A stretch of 51,682 nt of DNA, taken from Thermodesulfobacteriota bacterium. GTDB taxonomy: Bacteria; Desulfobacterota; Desulfobulbia; Desulfobulbales; Desulfocapsaceae. The notes below the pieces were generated by a model. The model made no database searches. It worked only from the letters and a program-made list of their open reading frames with translations, and was not told where the DNA came from. Made by a program: the position numbers and the translations under genes. The DNA lies in assembly GCA_039715055.1 (NCBI GenBank), contig JBDLID010000004.1:1-51682 (forward strand), in the 5' to 3' direction. This document shows, one piece after another, positions 24,908 to 31,268 of the stretch (positions within the stretch are counted from its first letter, which is position 1; each line of letters starts with the position of its first letter).

Positions 24908-25765
24908 TCAAAAGCGCTCTACAATTATTTCTCGAGCCACGCTCATGAAGGCATGCAGTGCTGCAGTTTCAACATTGTTGACATGGGTTAATATTCCAAC
25001 TCTTCCCTCGCTATTTTCAAGAGGAACAGAGTTGATATGAGGCGCTATGTGGGGCAGGGCCGATACTGACTCAGGCAGCAGACTGACTCCAACACCGCCA
25101 ATGATACATGCCAGAACAGCATCCATTCCTTTTAAAGTCAATTCCCTGGTCACATTGACCTGTAAATGATTGAGGTGCTCGTACAGTATCCGCCGATACT
25201 GGCTTGCCCTTGAAAAGGTCAATGTGGTCACCTCTGCTTGAGCGGAAAATTCGTAATCTACGCCGTGGACCAGCATCAACTTTTCCGGTCTGGAAAATCC
25301 ATAGTTGAGTTTGGGGTGTGCTATGGAAATATCTGTAAGCGCACAGTCCAGCTGATGGTTCAATAACTGTGCAGTCATGGTTTCGACAAAGAGCGACTGC
25401 ACATTGATCTCCACTTCAGGGTAGTGCTTGATAAATGCTTGAAGAATTTTTGGTAACCATGCAGTTGCAGCAGTCTGGGAAACTCCTATATTCAGGAGGC
25501 CGGAGATTTCATTTTGTGAGAATCTGGTTTCAGTGTCCTTTGCCAGTCGAACAATCTGTTTTGCCTGCCCTATGAGTTCACGACCATTGGCGGTAAGGGT
25601 CACCCCCCTGTTCTCACGGTAAAACAGCTGTGCATCAAGAGTGCTTTCCAGCTTCTTAATCCGGGCAGTCACATTGGGCTGAACACAGTTGAGCTTTTCT
25701 GCAGCCCGTGTAAAACCGCCGCTTTCCACAACCGTAAGAAAGACCATCAGGTCATAGATCTCCAT
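24908..25765 (-). CDS. LysR-family transcriptional regulator, divergent from the GNAT/DapF-like unit.
   Basis: The HTH begins the protein (MEIYDLMVFLTVVESGGFTRAAEKLNCVQPNVTARIKKLE), followed by an LTTR substrate-binding domain. The start was set at the internal ATG at 25765; the ORF-track extension to 25936 lacks homology. Confidence 0.85.
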   Translation of the reverse strand: MEIYDLMVFLTVVESGGFTRAAEKLNCVQPNVTARIKKLESTLDAQLFYRENRGVTLTANGRELIGQAKQIVRLAKDTETRFSQNEISGLLNIGVSQTAATAWLPKILQAFIKHYPEVEINVQSLFVETMTAQLLNHQLDCALTDISIAHPKLNYGFSRPEKLMLVHGVDYEFSAQAEVTTLTFSRASQYRRILYEHLNHLQVNVTRELTLKGMDAVLACIIGGVGVSLLPESVSALPHIAPHINSVPLENSEGRVGILTHVNNVETAALHAFMSVAREIIVERF

Positions 25766-25924
25766 GTCATCACCATTTTTGATTGATTCATAAAAATTGA
25801 TTATTTGAAACAATATCACGAGTTGACCATAGTTCAAGTAACTGATCAACAAAAGAACAAAAGGGTGGAAAGGTGCTTTTCCGGTGAAAGAACTGCCCCC
25901 TGACAGCAACGGAGAGCCACAGTT

Positions 25925-26329
25925 ATGGAAATACAATACCGGACGACACAGTCGTTTGAGCGTTCACAGTTACAGCAGTTGTTTCTCGCGGTGGAGTGGT
26001 CTTCCGGCAACTATCCGGACAGGTTGCAGACTGCCATGAAAAATGCTGACACGGTATTTTCTGCTTGGGATGGCACCAAACTGGTTGGGCTGATGCATGC
26101 TGTTTCCGATGGTGTTATGACAGCATATTTCCAATATTTACTCGTCCACCCGGATTATCAGTCGAGAGGAATTGGCAATGCCCTTGTCACCGCAATGCTT
26201 GGTAAATACAAGGACTGCGCCCGTAAAGTGCTGATAGCCTATGACAAGGAAATTGAATTTTATAAGAGTTGCGGTTTTCTGGTCGGACATGGCAAAACAC
26301 CAATGTTCATCACCTACCTGTCAACATGA
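25925..26329 (+). CDS. GNAT-family N-acetyltransferase.
   Basis: Acetyl-CoA-binding motif A-like sequence (YQSRGIGNALV), 134 aa. The stop overlaps the next gene's start (ATGA). Confidence 0.75.
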   Translation: MEIQYRTTQSFERSQLQQLFLAVEWSSGNYPDRLQTAMKNADTVFSAWDGTKLVGLMHAVSDGVMTAYFQYLLVHPDYQSRGIGNALVTAMLGKYKDCARKVLIAYDKEIEFYKSCGFLVGHGKTPMFITYLST

Positions 26330-27180
26330 AATTTACAAAATATCATGCACTGGGAAATGATTACCTGGTGATCAACCCGCAAGAACTGGCATCTGAGCTG
26401 ACAAGGAAGGCCATCACTCTTCTCTGTCACAGAAATTTTGGTGTGGGATCAGACGGCCTTCTGCTTGGTCCGCTGAAAAGTATGCGATGTGATTTCGGCT
26501 TGAAAATATTTAATCCCGATGGAAGTGAAGCGGAAAAGAGCGGCAACGGGTTGCGTATTTTTGCGCGCTGGTTGTGGGATGAAGGTCGCGTTGGTACAAA
26601 ACCGTTTAGTGTGGAAACAGACGGCGGGATCGTATCCTGCACTGTCGAAGATGATGGCAGAAATGTTACAGTTGAAATGGGAGAGGTCATTTTTGAGCGA
26701 ATCAACGAGACAATAGCGGTTGAAGACCAGGTCATGACCATCTGTACCGCATCTGTTGGTAACCCTCACTGTGTTGTCCTCTCCGAGCTCCCAACCGCAG
26801 CGCTGGCTCAAAAGTATGGTCCAATTATTGAAGTTGATCCACTGTTTCCAAACCGTACGAACGTGCAGTTCATACGTGTCATTGATCGCAATACCATCCA
26901 GCTTGAAATCTGGGAACGCGGGGCTGGCTATACGCTCGCCTCGGGCAGCAGCAGTACCGCAGCAGCGGCAGTTGCCTACAAGCTTGGTTTATGCGACCCG
27001 GATATCACTGTTCAGATGGTTGGGGGAGAAATCGAAATAGAGTTGAATGAAGCATTTCTTGCTACAATGCGAGGTCCGGTAATCAAGGTATGCAATGGCG
27101 TCATAGCAGATGAGATGTTTGAAACACTCGTAACAATTCAGCAGCACCCACATTGTGGCCGATCAGGCCGCCTCGAGTAG
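26326..27180 (+). CDS. Diaminopimelate-epimerase (DapF) family protein in which both catalytic cysteines are replaced by serine.
   Basis: N-terminus [17 protein letters not shown] matches DapF [38 protein letters not shown] matches [42 protein letters not shown] matches [20 protein letters not shown]. The start is at the ATG at 26326. Confidence 0.75.
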   Translation: [284 protein letters not shown]

Positions 27181-27250: not shown

Positions 27251-27739
27251 ATGATCAGAGCAGCAATTAAGGGCGAGGCCACAATTCTCACCAGAATCTC
27301 ATTTGAATCCAAGGGGCACTGGAACTACCCCAAAAAATATTTTGATATCTGGGAAAGTGAACTGACGATACGACCTGACGATATTGTGGAAAATCACGTC
27401 TATGTCGTAGAAAACAATGGTGACATCGTAGGATATTATTCAGTTACTGAACTCCGCCAGGATAGGCAACTATTCGAGATGAAGTTAGAAAAAGGATTCT
27501 GGCTTGAACATATGTTTGTGCTCTCCTCCAATATCGGTCAAGGCTTTGGGACAGAGATGTTTGAGCATCTCCGAGAATGGTGTAAATCACACCGGGTGAA
27601 CAGATTGTTCATTCTTGCAGACCCTAACGCCAAAGGATTTTACGAAAAAATGGAGTGTGAATATCAGGAGGATTTTCCTTCTACTGTCGCAAATCGGACG
27701 ACACCGCTTTTCACCTTGGACATTGAACCACAGGAGTAA
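27251..27739 (+). CDS. GNAT-family N-acetyltransferase.
   Basis: GNAT motif A is GQGFGTEMF, 162 aa. Confidence 0.7.
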   Translation: MIRAAIKGEATILTRISFESKGHWNYPKKYFDIWESELTIRPDDIVENHVYVVENNGDIVGYYSVTELRQDRQLFEMKLEKGFWLEHMFVLSSNIGQGFGTEMFEHLREWCKSHRVNRLFILADPNAKGFYEKMECEYQEDFPSTVANRTTPLFTLDIEPQE

Positions 27740-28011: not shown

Positions 28012-28413
28012 ATGGAGAAAGCAATGAATCAAATTGATTTTTATGAGGCAAAACTAAAATACGAAACTGATTCCTGGGATTTATCAGAAGCCTTGAAAAA
28101 CAATGACAACGTGGTCGTAATCGATGCACGGTCGATAGAAGCGTATGAAATCGATCATATCCCCTCAGCAATCAGCTTTCCTCACAGGACCATGTCCGAG
28201 AAAACAACTGTCAATCTGGACAAATCAAAAACATATGTCACCTACTGTGATGGAATAGGCTGCAATGCGTCTACAAAGGGCGCGGCAAACCTTGCCAGAC
28301 TCGGTTTTAACGTAAAGGAACTTTTGGGCGGCCTGGAGTGGTGGAAAAGAGATGGGTATGCAACTGTTGGGAAAAATGGCATTGAAGGCAAGAGCACTGC
28401 TTGCGGCTGCTGA
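28012..28413 (+). CDS. Single-domain rhodanese-like sulfurtransferase.
   Basis: Rhodanese fold with an active-site Cys loop (YCDGIGCNASTKGA), 133 aa. Confidence 0.7.
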   Translation: MEKAMNQIDFYEAKLKYETDSWDLSEALKNNDNVVVIDARSIEAYEIDHIPSAISFPHRTMSEKTTVNLDKSKTYVTYCDGIGCNASTKGAANLARLGFNVKELLGGLEWWKRDGYATVGKNGIEGKSTACGC

Positions 28414-28786
28414 CAATGGTGGAATAATAAGAATTAAGGTGGCCGTCGGGCCTGACCGGAAACTGGCAATTACGCCTGCGGGCCGGGGAGTACTGTCCGG
28501 TCAGAAAAAATGGCTGGCGATTGAAGAATATGACAGATGGCTCGGAGGAGTTCATCTGTCATATACCAATACCTGGTGTTGGGACGAGACTGTAAAATAA
28601 ATTGTGTAAATGAGTATCGCTTGGTCTGAGTCCGGAATTCTATATATCTATCCATTAACTCTATTTATCCGCAGTACCCTTCTTTCAAATCATCCTCGCC
28701 TCCTCCAGATTTTTTCAACACCGGAAACATTCTCCCTTGTTACAACCTTAGCTACACTTGTCAATCGGAAGAGATCATTTACCCCC

Positions 28787-28815
28787 TTGACAAATTAGAG
28801 TAATTGCTCTAATTA
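28787..28815 (+). promoter_or_regulatory. Sigma70-like promoter TTGACA-N17-TAATTA. A perfect palindrome TTAGAG-TAATTG-CTCTAA (28795-28812) overlaps it and is a candidate operator upstream of the B12-rSAM gene.
   Basis: Hexamers and the 6-bp inverted arms were read from the sequence, about 45 bp upstream of the rSAM ATG, which has a GGAG SD. Confidence 0.4.
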
Positions 28816-28858
28816 TTTCTCCAGCTAAGATCCCAACTCAATACAGCCGGAGAATATC

Positions 28859-30217
28859 ATGCGAATTCTACTCATTCAGCCAGCAAGCAGCATTGGATTC
28901 ATAGATCAGGTTTATATGCACGAACCTTTAGCTTTAGAATATCTTGGGGCCGGCCTGAAATTGGATGATCATGATGTTCTATTATTAGATGGTCGTATCG
29001 ATACAGATCTATTATCCAGAGGGCAAGAGTTCCAGCCTGATATCGTCGCACTGACCGGCTATACCAGCCAGGTGAACATCATCATAGAACTTGCTCGAAA
29101 ATTCAAAGCCATCTCCCCTGCCCCTTTCGTGGTTGTCGGTGGGCATCATGCCACTGTTCGACCAGTTGATTTCAATCTCCCTGCCATTGATCTGACGGTA
29201 ATCGGCGAGGGGGTGACGACACTTAGGGAAATTGCCGGTAAGCTTGCAGCAAGACAGGATTTCAATGCTGTTGACGGATTGGCTATTCCCGGAGACAAAC
29301 AACGGTTCACCCGGGCACGCCCACACTGCAGCCTCAATGATCTTCCAATGCCTGATCGTTCCCTGACGGCCCGCTATCGAAGCCACTATTTCAGTGAATG
29401 GCTGCAGCCTCTTGCCTCTATCCGAACTTCACTGGGATGTGTTGGTCGTTGTAATTTCTGTGCGCTATGGTCACTCACCGACGGCAGATACCTGAAGCGA
29501 AATCCGGAGAAAGTCATTGAGGAGCTTAAAACAATAAATGAAAAGAACGTTTTCTTCTGTGATGATGAATCAATGTGTGACGTGAAGAGAATGGAAATAT
29601 TAGCTGATCTGATACGCGAAAATGGAATTAAAAAGCATTATTTTCTCTATGCCCGGGCAGATACCGTAGTTCGCCATCCGCAACTGTTTGAAAAATGGCG
29701 GGATGTGGGGTTGCGCCAGGTATTTGTTGGAATGGAGAGTTTCTCAGATTCGCATTTGCAGGCGATGAACAAGGGAATCACCTTAGAGCAACAAGAAGAA
29801 GCCGTACATGTCCTGAGAGAGTTGGGGATAATGCTTTATGCTTCTTTTGTTGTAGATCCTGACTTTTCTCATGAGGACTTCGGATCTCTGACACAATATG
29901 TACGTCGTTTACAGCTGAACCATGCCTCCTTTTCAATCCTGACACCGTTACCCGGGACAAAGATGTGGGAAGAACGACAAAATGATTTACTTCCATACCG
30001 TCCGGAGCTGTTTGATTTTATCCATACAGTTCTACCGACTCGGTTGCCGTTTCCTGAATTTTATACCGAATTTGCCCTTCTCTGGCAAAACGCTGTCCCA
30101 CCATATCGTGCACTCAAGACTTTCTCTCGCTATGGCCTGAAGAGATTGCCTGGAGTCTTTCGGCTCTTAAGCAAGGCAACATCAACCATGCGCCGGGCAC
30201 ATCTGGACCACTGTTAG
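28859..30217 (+). CDS. Cobalamin (B12)-binding domain radical SAM enzyme (class B rSAM).
   Basis: A B12-binding Rossmann-like N-terminus is followed by the CxxxCxxC radical SAM motif (CVGRCNFC), 452 aa. Confidence 0.85.
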   Translation: MRILLIQPASSIGFIDQVYMHEPLALEYLGAGLKLDDHDVLLLDGRIDTDLLSRGQEFQPDIVALTGYTSQVNIIIELARKFKAISPAPFVVVGGHHATVRPVDFNLPAIDLTVIGEGVTTLREIAGKLAARQDFNAVDGLAIPGDKQRFTRARPHCSLNDLPMPDRSLTARYRSHYFSEWLQPLASIRTSLGCVGRCNFCALWSLTDGRYLKRNPEKVIEELKTINEKNVFFCDDESMCDVKRMEILADLIRENGIKKHYFLYARADTVVRHPQLFEKWRDVGLRQVFVGMESFSDSHLQAMNKGITLEQQEEAVHVLRELGIMLYASFVVDPDFSHEDFGSLTQYVRRLQLNHASFSILTPLPGTKMWEERQNDLLPYRPELFDFIHTVLPTRLPFPEFYTEFALLWQNAVPPYRALKTFSRYGLKRLPGVFRLLSKATSTMRRAHLDHC

Positions 30218-30230
30218 AAAATCGGCTACT

Positions 30231-30845
30231 ATGCTGCCGATGACAGCAAAAGCCAAAATCAAAACGCGTGAGAAAATCCTGGAGAAAGCTTTACAGCTCT
30301 TTAATGAAAGAGGAACTGCTGCGGTGACGACAAACCACATCTCCGCAGCCATTGGTATCAGTCCAGGCAATCTCTACTACCATTTCCACAATCGTGAGGA
30401 GATCATTCGAGAGATATTCTCTATGATGGAGGAAGAAAGTCGTGAAGGTTTCGGGCCTATTGCATCTGAGGCTCATGGACTCGGCCTTCAGGCGTTTGAG
30501 GAAACTTTCCGATTCATCCAGCAATTCAACCAACGCTTTATATTCTTTAAAAGAGAGTTGCCGATACTGCTGATGCGTGACCCTGAACTGCGAGTGAGTT
30601 TTGAAAAAGTCCACCAGGAGACCCTGGAGCTGATTCGTACTCTTGTCGATGGTGCTGTTGCCGGAGGGATATTGCGTCCACTTGAAACTGAGGAGAGACA
30701 ACTGCTCACCGAGATGAGTTGGATGCTGACTCTTTTCTGGCCCAATTATCTCGAAATATCAGGCCAGGACAATTCTCAAGAGGGGCTTGAACGTGGAATC
30801 GCCATGATCCGATTACTTGTCAATGGGTTTAAAGCAGGTGAGTAA
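30231..30845 (+). CDS. TetR/AcrR-family transcriptional regulator.
   Basis: N-terminal TetR HTH (LFNERGTAAVTTNHISAAIGISPGNLYYHF), 204 aa. Confidence 0.85.
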   Translation: MLPMTAKAKIKTREKILEKALQLFNERGTAAVTTNHISAAIGISPGNLYYHFHNREEIIREIFSMMEEESREGFGPIASEAHGLGLQAFEETFRFIQQFNQRFIFFKRELPILLMRDPELRVSFEKVHQETLELIRTLVDGAVAGGILRPLETEERQLLTEMSWMLTLFWPNYLEISGQDNSQEGLERGIAMIRLLVNGFKAGE

Positions 30846-30857
30846 GAAGTAACGATC

Positions 30858-31268
30858 ATGGCAAATTCTCTACTATCCGGCGAAACCAGCCTCACAACAC
30901 TACTGCAGAGTATGAATCCAGTACTTCGCCCAGGGGAGTTTGTCTTTTGCTCCATCGATCCGGACGCAGTTGCCGGCCTTTCCGGCACGCCCATTTGCCA
31001 GTTTACCGAAGAAGAGGGGCTGACGGTCATCATGCAAAAAGAAGACGCCGAAAAGAGCAGCCTGCAATATGGTTATGTTTCTAAAATGATCACCATAGGC
31101 GTTCACTCAAGCCTTGATGCAGTGGGATTTCTTGCCGCGATAACCGGTAAATTGGCAGCACATGGCATCAGCGTCAATGCGGTTTCAGCATTTTATCACG
31201 ATCACCTCTTTGTTCCGCCTGACAATGCCGATGAAGCCATGGAAATTTTAAATAGTCTGTCAAAGTAG
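30858..31268 (+). CDS. ACT-domain-containing small regulatory protein.
   Basis: The C-terminal ACT-like fold pattern is ITIGVHSSLDAVGFLAAITGKLAAHGISVNAVSAFYHDHLFV. Confidence 0.55.
   Translation: MANSLLSGETSLTTLLQSMNPVLRPGEFVFCSIDPDAVAGLSGTPICQFTEEEGLTVIMQKEDAEKSSLQYGYVSKMITIGVHSSLDAVGFLAAITGKLAAHGISVNAVSAFYHDHLFVPPDNADEAMEILNSLSK

What the first reader, a model, noticed from the sequence alone, without database searches (positions are those of the whole stretch)
25925..27180. DapF-family protein with both catalytic cysteines replaced by serine, translationally coupled to a GNAT acetyltransferase under a divergent LysR regulator
Residue-level alignment to E. coli DapF is unambiguous across the motifs: HGLGND, FNxDGSE, GNGxRxFARx, GNPH and ERGAG. 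At the two catalytic thiol positions this protein has Ser instead of Cys: AQCGNG becomes EKSGNG, and QACGSGAC becomes [8 protein letters not shown]. PLP-independent racemases of this fold require the Cys/Cys pair, and Cys-to-Thr/Ser variants in the related proline racemase family are dehydratases. So this is unlikely to be a DAP epimerase and may catalyse a different reaction on an amino-acid-like substrate. The GNAT upstream (ATGA-coupled) and the divergent LysR suggest a small regulated modification module.
Basis: partly seen in the sequence, partly recalled or inferred. Interest (0 to 1): 0.6.

Follow-up and report, generated by a model that had tools for sequence, protein, structure and literature searches.

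The report
Cysteine-free (Ser/Ser) diaminopimelate epimerase subfamily member
This gene belongs to a large, old and previously undescribed branch of the lysine and cell-wall enzyme DapF in which both "essential" catalytic cysteines are serines, and its genomic setting in other bacteria suggests that it still does DapF's job.

Summary
Formal alignments put Ser72 (AGC, 26539-26541) and Ser206 (TCG, 26941-26943) at the positions of DapF Cys73 and Cys217. The ATGA overlap with the upstream GNAT and the divergent LysR gene are also real.

It is not a sequencing error or a one-off. All 120 closest homologues and 139 of the best 150 cluster representatives are Ser/Ser. They form one clade, and both serines use both codon classes across it. 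Every DAP-binding residue is kept.

- Ser/Ser genes sit in dapF-dapL-lysA operons.
- One occupies the canonical dapF-yigA-xerC slot.
- Others are fused to LysA, MurE or alanine racemase.
- A natural Ser/Cys epimerase is already known in the sister proline-racemase family.

My best reading (about 0.5) is a thiol-free, isofunctional LL/meso-DAP epimerase. I could not test whether these genomes also carry a Cys/Cys dapF.

GNAT pairing is not a family-wide trait, but this particular GNAT lineage lies next to a Ser/Ser DapF in all three lineages found. Its role is unknown. I found no paper describing natural Ser/Ser DapFs.

The parts
24908..25765 (-). LysR-family transcriptional regulator, divergent from the GNAT1/DapF* unit
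   Evidence: PF00126 HTH_1 (E 1e-20) and PF03466 LysR_substrate (E 1e-28). No NCBIfam equivalog reaches its cutoff; the best is PtrR at 145 bits against a cutoff of 400. The ATG was placed by reading the sequence.
25766..25924 (.). 159-bp divergent intergenic region. It holds weak promoter-like sites on both strands and an AT-rich inverted repeat, ATTTTT-N11-AAAAAT (25775-25797), a T-N11-A-type LysR-box candidate.
   Evidence: Promoter-like sites at + 25805-25833 and - 25829-25800 (11 sites found in the scanned region against 7.0 +/- 2.6 in shuffles, so this is weak). Inverted repeat I2. The GGAGAG Shine-Dalgarno sequence 8 nt before the GNAT1 ATG was read.
25925..26329 (+). GNAT1, a small (134 aa) GNAT acetyltransferase of unknown substrate
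   Evidence: PF00583 E 4e-12. The closest solved relative is 2atr, an uncharacterised GNAT (E 5e-15). Orthologues lie next to Ser/Ser DapF in L086-L089 (74% id, same ATGA overlap) and in L098 (57% id, opposite gene order).
26326..26329 (+). ATGA stop/start overlap between GNAT1 and DapF*, which suggests translational coupling
   Evidence: Sequence. The same overlap is seen in L086. No obvious Shine-Dalgarno sequence lies upstream of the DapF* ATG (read).
26326..27180 (+). DapF* : a Ser/Ser member of the diaminopimelate epimerase family (284 aa)
   Evidence: TIGR00652 at 227 bits (cutoff 114.65) and PF01678 x2. AF2 model with pLDDT 94.7; best Foldseek hit is Anabaena DapF 9mro, TM 0.87-0.89. 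100% identical to an NCBI MAG protein named 'diaminopimelate epimerase [Thermodesulfobacteriota bacterium]'.
26539..26541 (+). Codon AGC for Ser72, at the position of catalytic Cys73 of DapF
   Evidence: In the model, helix 73-85 starts directly after it.
26941..26943 (+). Codon TCG for Ser206, at the position of catalytic Cys217 of DapF
   Evidence: In the model, helix 207-219 starts directly after it.
27251..27739 (+). GNAT2, a second and unrelated GNAT acetyltransferase (162 aa), 70 nt downstream on the same strand. It may belong to the same transcript.
   Evidence: PF00583 E 7e-12; no NCBIfam hit. No terminator-like site between 27181 and 27250. It is absent from the closest relative's locus, which carries a 4HBT thioesterase at that position.

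Best explanation
The gene encodes a member of a large, monophyletic, long-conserved subfamily of DapF (written DapF* here). In this subfamily both general acid/base cysteines are serines, accompanied by clade-specific changes next to them: Met72 to Lys, Glu213 to Tyr, and Thr219-Gly220 to Ser-Ser (E. coli numbering).

The subfamily most likely still interconverts LL- and meso-diaminopimelate for lysine and peptidoglycan synthesis. On this reading it is a thiol-free isofunctional variant.

Proposed mechanism (inferred, not shown). DAP binds exactly as in canonical DapF, since all binding residues are kept. The two serines sit at the N-termini of the two opposed helices, as in canonical DapF. 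[quoted passage not shown] The retained His159/Glu208 dyad and the new Lys and Tyr would help as proton relays or pKa tuners.

In this window the gene is the second cistron of a LysR-flanked unit, GNAT1-DapF*(-GNAT2), and is translationally coupled to GNAT1. That pairing is a trait of a narrow lineage and its biochemical meaning is unknown. One possibility is N-acetylation of DAP or of a DAP/lysine analogue.

Shown: the Ser/Ser identity, clade conservation, fold, retained binding site, and the gene contexts. Inferred: epimerase activity, the catalytic role of the serines, and co-transcription.
For: 1. Both catalytic positions are Ser in all 120 closest homologues, in 139 of the best 150 50%-identity representatives and in 78 of 80 genome loci from at least 10 phyla.
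2. The clade is monophyletic when the catalytic columns are masked: it holds 116 of 118 Ser/Ser sequences and no Cys/Cys sequence.
3. Both Ser sites use both AGY and TCN codons across the family (64/14 and 14/65). This indicates long purifying selection for Ser itself.
4. N11, N64, G74, N75, N157, P158, H159, N190, E208, R209, T214 and G218 are conserved as strongly as in 121 Cys/Cys DapFs.
5. The fold is DapF. The model is closest to the closed Anabaena enzyme, and both Ser sit at helix N-termini.
6. Operons DapF*-DapL-LysA-like occur in L042, L080 and L085, and DapF*-DapL in L079. The DapL genes pass their equivalog cutoffs: 543 bits against 365, and 644 against 585.
7. In Burkholderiales locus L076, DapF* is followed by a DUF484 gene and a XerC-like gene. 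This is the E. coli dapF-yigA-xerC arrangement.
8. In Cellvibrio locus L045 the order is leuC-leuD-DapF*-leuB-asd.
9. DapF* is fused to LysA (above the TIGR01048 cutoff), to meso-DAP-type MurE (found in two independent metagenomes) and to alanine racemase.
10. DapF* is present in many Opitutaceae genomes (at least ten of the 80 best loci, and more than 100 protein clusters at 77-91% identity), including the complete chromosome of isolate Opitutus sp. GAS368. A redoxin-like gene recurs nearby in several of these loci. DAP is present in cells of this family (PMC5303756).
11. Precedent: a natural Ser/Cys 4-hydroxyproline 2-epimerase, and a catalytic Ser that abstracts the alpha-proton, exist in the same fold (PMC4113996).
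Against: 1. Engineered Cys-to-Ser mutants of DapF and its relatives are described as hindering catalysis and are used to trap open forms (PMC12039745 and PMC11602996). No Ser/Ser epimerase is documented.
In cyanobacteria such as Nostoc sp. CCY 9925 a canonical copy is expected, since Anabaena DapF is Cys/Cys. There DapF* is probably an extra copy.
3. The window itself has no lysine or peptidoglycan genes near the gene. Instead it has two GNATs and a LysR regulator, which looks more like an accessory module.
4. The LysA-like genes in the L080-type operons score below the lysA cutoff (249 bits against 298).
Confidence: 0.5

Rival explanations
1. DapF* binds DAP or a close analogue but catalyses a different reaction. 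Examples are an elimination or dehydration on a beta-substituted DAP, or a one-directional stereoinversion. In this window it would work together with GNAT1 as a regulated amino-acid modification module.
For: - Both thiols are lost and the residues around them are remodelled in a coordinated way: K71, Y202, S208, S209.
- In the proline racemase superfamily, the Ser/Thr members are dehydratases (PMC4113996).
- The GNAT1 lineage is adjacent to DapF* in all three lineages found, in both gene orders.
- One DapF*-GNAT fusion exists (P0158).
- A LysR regulator sits alongside.
Against: - The whole DAP-binding site, including the distal-centre residues, is unchanged.
- The recurrent partners across phyla are DapL, LysA and MurE, and one DapF* gene sits in the dapF slot. 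These partners need an epimerase, not a new product.
- GNAT neighbours are rare (3 of 105) and not orthologous to each other.
- The GNAT fusion rests on a single 1.4-kb contig.
Confidence: 0.2
2. DapF* is a catalytically dead DAP-binding protein (a pseudoenzyme). It would act as a sensor, a regulatory subunit or a substrate-delivery domain for LysA or MurE, or for transcriptional control.
For: - Both residues considered essential are lost, while the ligand-binding residues are kept.
- It occurs as a domain fused to LysA, MurE and Alr, which could be regulatory.
- E. coli DapF has a known non-catalytic role as an activator of RppH (PMC6061791, listed).
Against: - Pseudoenzymes usually drift at the former catalytic positions. 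Here Ser is nearly invariant at both sites and is maintained across both codon classes.
- The His159/Glu208 catalytic environment is retained.
- Occupying the dapF slot and the dapF-dapL-lysA operons would leave those pathways without an epimerase, unless a second gene exists.
Confidence: 0.15
3. The serines are artefacts (sequencing or assembly error, or misalignment), or the gene is a decaying pseudogene.
For: The contig comes from a metagenome-assembled genome. In two related loci (L008, L052) the gene is split into two ORFs.
Against: - There is an intact 284-codon ORF and a model with pLDDT 94.7.
- The same motifs appear in hundreds of independent assemblies, including isolate genomes.
- Three independent alignment methods agree.
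Confidence: 0.01

Closest known systems
Canonical diaminopimelate epimerase DapF (TIGR00652 / PF01678; e.g. H. influenzae, E. coli, Anabaena 9mro)
   Same: - The two-domain fold.
- 33-36% identity to the solved enzymes.
- All DAP-binding residues and the His159/Glu208 dyad.
- Catalytic positions at the N-termini of two opposed helices.
- In other genomes, the same pathway neighbours: dapL, lysA, and the yigA-xerC slot.
   Different: - Both catalytic cysteines are serines.
- Clade-specific Lys at position 72, Tyr at 213, and Ser-Ser at 219-220 (E. coli numbering).
- It forms its own clade.
- In this window it is coupled to a GNAT under a LysR regulator, rather than sitting among lysine or cell-wall genes.
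[quoted passage not shown]
   Same: - The same DapF-like fold.
- A natural replacement of a catalytic Cys by Ser, with the Ser shown or proposed to act on the alpha-proton.
- They show that Cys/Cys is not obligatory.
   Different: - A different superfamily branch: 15-18% identity, TM 0.72-0.76.
- The substrates are prolines.
- Only one position is Ser. No Ser/Ser pair is known to perform a reversible epimerisation.
Engineered DapF C73S and C217S mutants (PDB 2q9h, 2q9j)
   Same: Ser at one catalytic position in an otherwise DapF active site. They are structural matches to the model.
   Different: - They are laboratory single mutants, described as hindering catalysis.
- They lack the compensating clade-specific substitutions seen in DapF*.
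Other DapF-fold enzymes that use non-thiol bases (PhzF with Glu45; PrpF and Mii with Lys)
   Same: The same superfold. They are examples of other acid/base residues being used in it.
   Different: 13% identity. Their substrates are not amino acids. Their catalytic residues are not at the positions that are changed here.

Membership tests
DapF (diaminopimelate epimerase, TIGR00652 / PF01678) | Sequence matches the family models above the curated cutoffs | tested here: met
   TIGR00652 at 227.2 bits against 114.65. PF01678 in two domains, E 5e-53.
DapF (diaminopimelate epimerase, TIGR00652 / PF01678) | Pseudo-symmetric two-domain DapF fold with the active site between two helix N-termini | tested here: met
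   AF2 model with pLDDT 94.7 and pTM 0.91. Foldseek top 26 hits are DapFs, apart from O-ureidoserine racemase 7vdy at ranks 20-21; the best is 9mro with TM 0.87-0.89. Helices start at residues 73 and 207.
DapF (diaminopimelate epimerase, TIGR00652 / PF01678) | Catalytic thiol pair Cys73/Cys217 | tested here: not met
   Ser72 and Ser206 occupy these positions in three independent alignments.
DapF (diaminopimelate epimerase, TIGR00652 / PF01678) | DAP-binding residues N11, N64, G74, N75, N157, N190, E208, R209, G218 and S219 | tested here: met
   All are present in the window protein. Across the Ser/Ser clade they are invariant or at least 97% conserved, except S219, which is Ser or Thr.
DapF (diaminopimelate epimerase, TIGR00652 / PF01678) | Genomic link to the DAP, lysine or peptidoglycan pathway | tested here: inconclusive
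   Not met in the window, where the neighbours are LysR, two GNATs, a rhodanese and a radical SAM protein. Met for the subfamily elsewhere: dapL/lysA operons, the yigA-xerC slot, and LysA, MurE and Alr fusions.
DapF (diaminopimelate epimerase, TIGR00652 / PF01678) | LL-DAP to meso-DAP epimerase activity | not testable with these tools
   This needs an enzyme assay or complementation.
Proline racemase superfamily dehydratase (t3HypD-like) | Membership of the ProR superfamily, and a Ser(Cys)/Thr pair with the Thr methyl facing the substrate | tested here: not met
   Only a distant fold similarity (15-18% id, E about 1e-16). The second position is Ser, not Thr. The binding residues are those for DAP, not proline.
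GNAT acetyltransferase (GNAT1 and GNAT2) | Match to the GNAT fold models | tested here: met
   PF00583 at E 4e-12 and 7e-12. No equivalog-level assignment.
LysR-type transcriptional regulator | N-terminal HTH_1 domain plus a LysR substrate-binding domain, transcribed divergently from its target | tested here: met
   PF00126 and PF03466. Divergent with a 159-bp spacer. Regulation of GNAT1-DapF* itself was not tested.

The most novel reading that the evidence does not exclude
[quoted passage not shown] It would have replaced the thiol enzyme as the housekeeping DapF in whole lineages (for example Opitutaceae, some Planctomycetota, Polyangiaceae and Desulfobacterota). That would make those organisms' DAP supply insensitive to thiol oxidation and to cysteine-alkylating DapF inhibitors.
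Probability: 0.4. Interest if true: 0.8.

Novelty: new variant of a known kind. Interest (0 to 1): 0.65.

Why it matters
DapF is the textbook case for the view that cofactor-independent amino-acid racemisation needs a desolvated thiolate/thiol pair. It is also an antibiotic target whose best inhibitors, the aziridino-DAPs, work by alkylating those cysteines.

A widespread natural Ser/Ser branch that still sits in lysine and peptidoglycan operons would have several consequences:
- It would give enzymologists a natural system to test how an oxygen acid/base pair can do this chemistry.
- It would predict intrinsic insensitivity to thiol-directed inhibitors and to oxidative inactivation.
- It would show that annotation pipelines name these proteins "diaminopimelate epimerase" without noticing that the defining active-site residues are missing.

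If the branch instead turns out to be non-catalytic or to do other chemistry, hundreds of genomes carry a wrong DapF annotation, and some may have a gap in their lysine pathway.

Tried and rejected
- **Sequencing error, misalignment or pseudogene.** Rejected.
- **A universal GNAT partner for the subfamily.** Rejected. Only 3 of 105 operonic neighbours in 80 genomes are GNATs, and those GNATs and the P0158 fusion domain share only generic GNAT similarity.
- **A second DapF (canonical or Ser/Ser) in the window or in any of the 97 loci fetched by then.** None found. This says nothing about the rest of those genomes.
- **A plasmid-borne or mobile accessory gene.** tblastn against 72,556 plasmids gave only hits at 38% identity or less, at annotated dapF genes where a feature is listed.
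- **Direct co-occurrence test with Cys/Cys DapF.** Not possible.
- **Tying the one DapF listed for Lacunisphaera limnophila IG16b (WP_069963382.1, PMC5303756) to the Ser/Ser type.** I tried cluster look-ups and a third homologue search. Lacunisphaera MAGs and Opitutus sp. GAS368 are Ser/Ser, but that accession did not surface.
- **Tool limits.** P0001 is not on record for the look-up of encoding contigs, and the afdb50 fold library was unavailable.
- **Literature.** Searches for a described natural Ser/Ser DapF found nothing. "DapF2" in the GapMind preprint is an unrelated PLP (Alr-like) enzyme.
- **Cross-phylum identity (53-63%) as evidence of horizontal transfer.** Dropped, because canonical DapFs of this type show similar cross-phylum identity.
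Full report
**1. The observation**

The region holds four genes:
- a LysR-type regulator at 24908-25765 (-);
- GNAT1 at 25925-26329 (+);
- a DapF-family gene at 26326-27180 (+);
- a second GNAT at 27251-27739 (+).

The GNAT1 stop and the DapF start overlap as ATGA at 26326-26329.

The DapF-family protein passes the NCBIfam DapF equivalog model (227 bits, cutoff 114.65) and carries two PF01678 domains. It is 100% identical to an NCBI MAG protein named [quoted passage not shown].

Residue-level alignments put serines at both catalytic positions. phmmer alignments to solved DapFs place EKSGNG opposite E-M/Q-CGNG and LASGSSS opposite (L/Q)ACGTGA. A 240-sequence MAFFT alignment that includes E. coli DapF gives S72 = C73 and S206 = C217. 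The E. coli sequence was verified against RefSeq. The codons are AGC (26539-26541) and TCG (26941-26943).

**2. It is a family, not an accident**

- All 120 closest database homologues (63-71% identity) carry EAEKSGNGL and YTLASGSSS.
- In an exhaustive search of 1.84 billion cluster representatives, 139 of the best 150 are Ser/Ser, down to 40% identity. The first Cys/Cys proteins appear only around E 1e-54.
Of the 80 best, 78 are Ser/Ser. In the other two a simple pattern search did not find both motifs, at least one of them being a gene split into two reading frames.
- Those 80 come from Desulfobacterota, Verrucomicrobiota (many Opitutaceae), Planctomycetota, Chloroflexota, Cyanobacteria, Cellvibrio, Burkholderiales, Polyangiaceae, Ignavibacteriota, Armatimonadota and Bdellovibrionota.
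- With the two catalytic columns masked, a neighbour-joining tree puts 116 of 118 Ser/Ser sequences in one clade. That clade contains no Cys/Cys sequence and eight rare variants (S/C, C/S, T/C, S/T and others).
- Across the genome loci, Ser72 is encoded 64 times by AGY and 14 times by TCN. Ser206 is encoded 65 times by TCN and 14 times by AGY. Moving between these codon classes needs two substitutions. So serine itself has been selected at both sites for a long time.

**3. What changed and what did not**

I compared 118 Ser/Ser sequences with 121 Cys/Cys sequences. Every residue known to bind DAP or to form the catalytic environment is conserved equally in both groups. In E. coli numbering these are N11, N64, G74, N75, N157, P158, H159, N190, E208, R209, T214 and G218.

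The clade-specific changes cluster around the two catalytic positions:
- C73S and C217S;
- M72K (79% Lys, 8% Arg);
- E213Y (78%);
- T219S and G220S;
- C79I, plus a few more distant positions.

The loop position that becomes Lys belongs to the segment that "curves around the substrate" in Anabaena DapF (PMC12039745).

An AlphaFold2 model built on a 43-sequence family alignment has pLDDT 94.7. Its best structural match is the closed, ligand-bound Anabaena DapF (TM 0.87-0.89, rmsd 2.0 A), and its top 26 matches are DapFs apart from O-ureidoserine racemase 7vdy at ranks 20-21. In the model, helices begin directly after S72 and S206, as they do after the cysteines of canonical DapF. The only Ser-containing DapF structures in the PDB are the engineered C73S and C217S mutants.

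**4. What the subfamily does: evidence from other genomes**

There is no universal neighbour. The recurrent partners are the DAP pathway itself.

- **Operons with dapL and lysA.** In L042, L080 and L085 the order is DapF*-DapL-LysA-like with gaps of 2-46 nt or overlaps. In L079 it is DapF*-DapL. The DapL genes pass their equivalog cutoffs (TIGR03542 543 against 365; NF004937 644 against 585). The LysA-like genes score 249, below the cutoff of 298.
- **The canonical dapF slot.** In Burkholderiales locus L076, DapF* is followed by a DUF484 gene and a XerC-like recombinase (TIGR02224 at 299 bits, just under its cutoff). This is the arrangement lptM-dapF-yigA(DUF484)-xerC of E. coli K-12. It looks like an in-place replacement of canonical dapF.
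- **Other biosynthetic settings.** In Cellvibrio L045 the gene lies between leuCD and leuB-asd. In Sedimentisphaerales it lies between thiS-thiG and a radical-SAM/BATS gene that looks like thiH.
- **Fusions.** The Ser/Ser domain is fused to LysA (360 and 410 bits, cutoff 298), to meso-DAP-type MurE, to alanine racemase, and also to GGACT, a methyltransferase and a GNAT. The MurE fusion was recovered identically from two metagenomes. One LysA fusion sits next to a YkfC-like NlpC/P60-SH3 peptidase and Opp-type peptide transporters.
- **Opitutaceae.** At least ten of the 80 best genome loci are Opitutaceae, and more than 100 protein clusters from this group share 77-91% identity. They include the complete chromosome of isolate Opitutus sp. 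GAS368. A redoxin-like gene recurs nearby in several of these loci. Cells of this family contain DAP, and a published pathway reconstruction for Lacunisphaera lists a single DapF (PMC5303756).
- **Not plasmid-borne.** No Ser/Ser copy was found on plasmids.

**5. Chemical plausibility**

In the proline racemase superfamily, which has the same fold, Zhao et al. solved two relevant structures (PMC4113996). [quoted passage not shown] The other is a Ser/Thr dehydratase in which the Ser abstracts the alpha-proton.

Against this, single Cys-to-Ser mutants of DapF-fold enzymes are described as hindering catalysis. No natural Ser/Ser epimerase is documented. I found no paper describing this subfamily.

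**6. Best explanation and rivals**

- **Best reading (0.5).** DapF* is an isofunctional, thiol-free DAP epimerase. The two serines, on helix N-termini, act as the acid/base pair, assisted by the retained His/Glu dyad and the new Lys and Tyr. The activity and the mechanism are inferred. The identity, conservation, fold and contexts are shown.
- **Different reaction on a DAP-like substrate (0.2).** It is favoured by the window's own context.
- **Non-catalytic DAP-binding protein (0.15).** Disfavoured by the strict maintenance of Ser at both sites and by the dapF-slot and operon evidence.
- **Artefact (about 0.01).** Excluded.

The main gap is that I could not test whether DapF* genomes also encode a Cys/Cys DapF. 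In cyanobacteria they probably do, because Anabaena DapF is canonical. So DapF* may be the sole enzyme in some lineages and a second isozyme in others.

**7. The window's own module**

GNAT1-DapF* is preceded by a Shine-Dalgarno sequence (GGAGAG). It has a 159-bp divergent spacer to lysR with weak promoter-like sites and an ATTTTT-N11-AAAAAT inverted repeat.

The closest DapF* relative (P0002, 71% identity, five contigs) has an orthologous GNAT1 (74% identity over 100 aa) with the same ATGA overlap. It is followed by a 4HBT thioesterase rather than by GNAT2. The only other close GNAT1 relative found in metagenomes (L098, 57% identity) lies immediately downstream of a Ser-type DapF*. So this GNAT lineage is adjacent to DapF* in all three lineages found, and in both gene orders. 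That argues for a real functional link within this narrow group.

Other close DapF* relatives (P0017, P0020, P0044, P0088) have no adjacent GNAT. The GNATs found next to DapF* elsewhere are unrelated to each other. GNAT1's nearest solved relative is an uncharacterised structural-genomics protein. What the pair does, for example acetylation of DAP or of an analogue, remains open.

**8. Verdict**

The gene is a member of a previously undescribed, widespread Ser/Ser variant of a known enzyme family, which databases annotate uniformly as DapF. I rate it "new variant of a known kind" with interest 0.65. It is surprising to racemase enzymologists and directly testable. Its activity is unproven, and the window's copy sits in an unexplained accessory-looking context.

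Noticed in passing
L076:10001-12480: In a Burkholderiales MAG the Ser/Ser DapF is followed by a DUF484 (YigA-like) gene and a XerC-like recombinase. This is the E. coli lptM-dapF-yigA-xerC arrangement, so the Ser/Ser gene appears to have replaced canonical dapF in place.
   Followed up: yes
L014:4969-8027 and L081:9003-12017: In two Sedimentisphaerales MAGs the Ser/Ser DapF sits between thiS-thiG and a radical-SAM/BATS (ThiH-like) gene, inside a thiazole biosynthesis cluster. I have no explanation for this.
   Followed up: partly
L094:6001-9113 (protein P0130): A LysA-DapF* fusion lies next to a YkfC-like NlpC/P60 peptidase with SH3 domains, and is flanked by Opp-type peptide ABC transporter genes and an amidohydrolase. 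This looks like a murein-peptide recycling locus that feeds DAP to lysine.
   Followed up: partly
Representative proteins P0220, P0255, P0204, P0172, P0216 and P0142: Rare members nested inside the Ser/Ser clade carry S/C, C/S, T/C, S/T, A/S or R/S at the two catalytic positions. They may be evolutionary intermediates, reversions or dead copies. They would be useful for mutational-path experiments.
   Followed up: partly
L086:1-387: The GNAT1 orthologue upstream of the closest DapF* relative is cut short at its N-terminus by an in-frame stop. About 97-105 aa remain, against 134 aa in the window. It keeps 74% identity and the ATGA overlap, so it may be a degenerating or shortened GNAT.
   Followed up: partly
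L008:891-1856 and L052:9992-10822: In two MAGs the Ser/Ser DapF gene is split into two adjacent ORFs. This could be a frameshift, an assembly error or a pseudogene. L008 also has an unrelated GNAT directly downstream.
   Followed up: no
window 25775-25797: An AT-rich inverted repeat, ATTTTT-N11-AAAAAT, lies 10-32 nt upstream of the lysR start codon. It has the spacing of a T-N11-A LysR box, but it could be chance in AT-rich DNA.
   Followed up: partly
window 28012-31268: Downstream on the same strand are a rhodanese-domain protein, a B12-binding radical SAM enzyme, a TetR regulator and a tandem-ACT-domain protein. The gaps to the DapF unit (about 270 nt and 445 nt) suggest separate transcription. 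Their function is unknown.
   Followed up: no
window 27130-27180 (DapF* residues 269-284): The window protein has a C-terminal tail (…[15 protein letters not shown]) that most homologues lack. The model gives it low confidence (pLDDT below 60).
   Followed up: no
L093 and the Opitutaceae loci L057, L060, L066, L077, L078 and L084: An AhpC/TSA-type redoxin gene is repeatedly found a few genes downstream of DapF* in Opitutaceae, on the opposite strand. This is probably just conserved synteny. I note it because thiol oxidation is the known weakness of Cys/Cys DapF.
   Followed up: no
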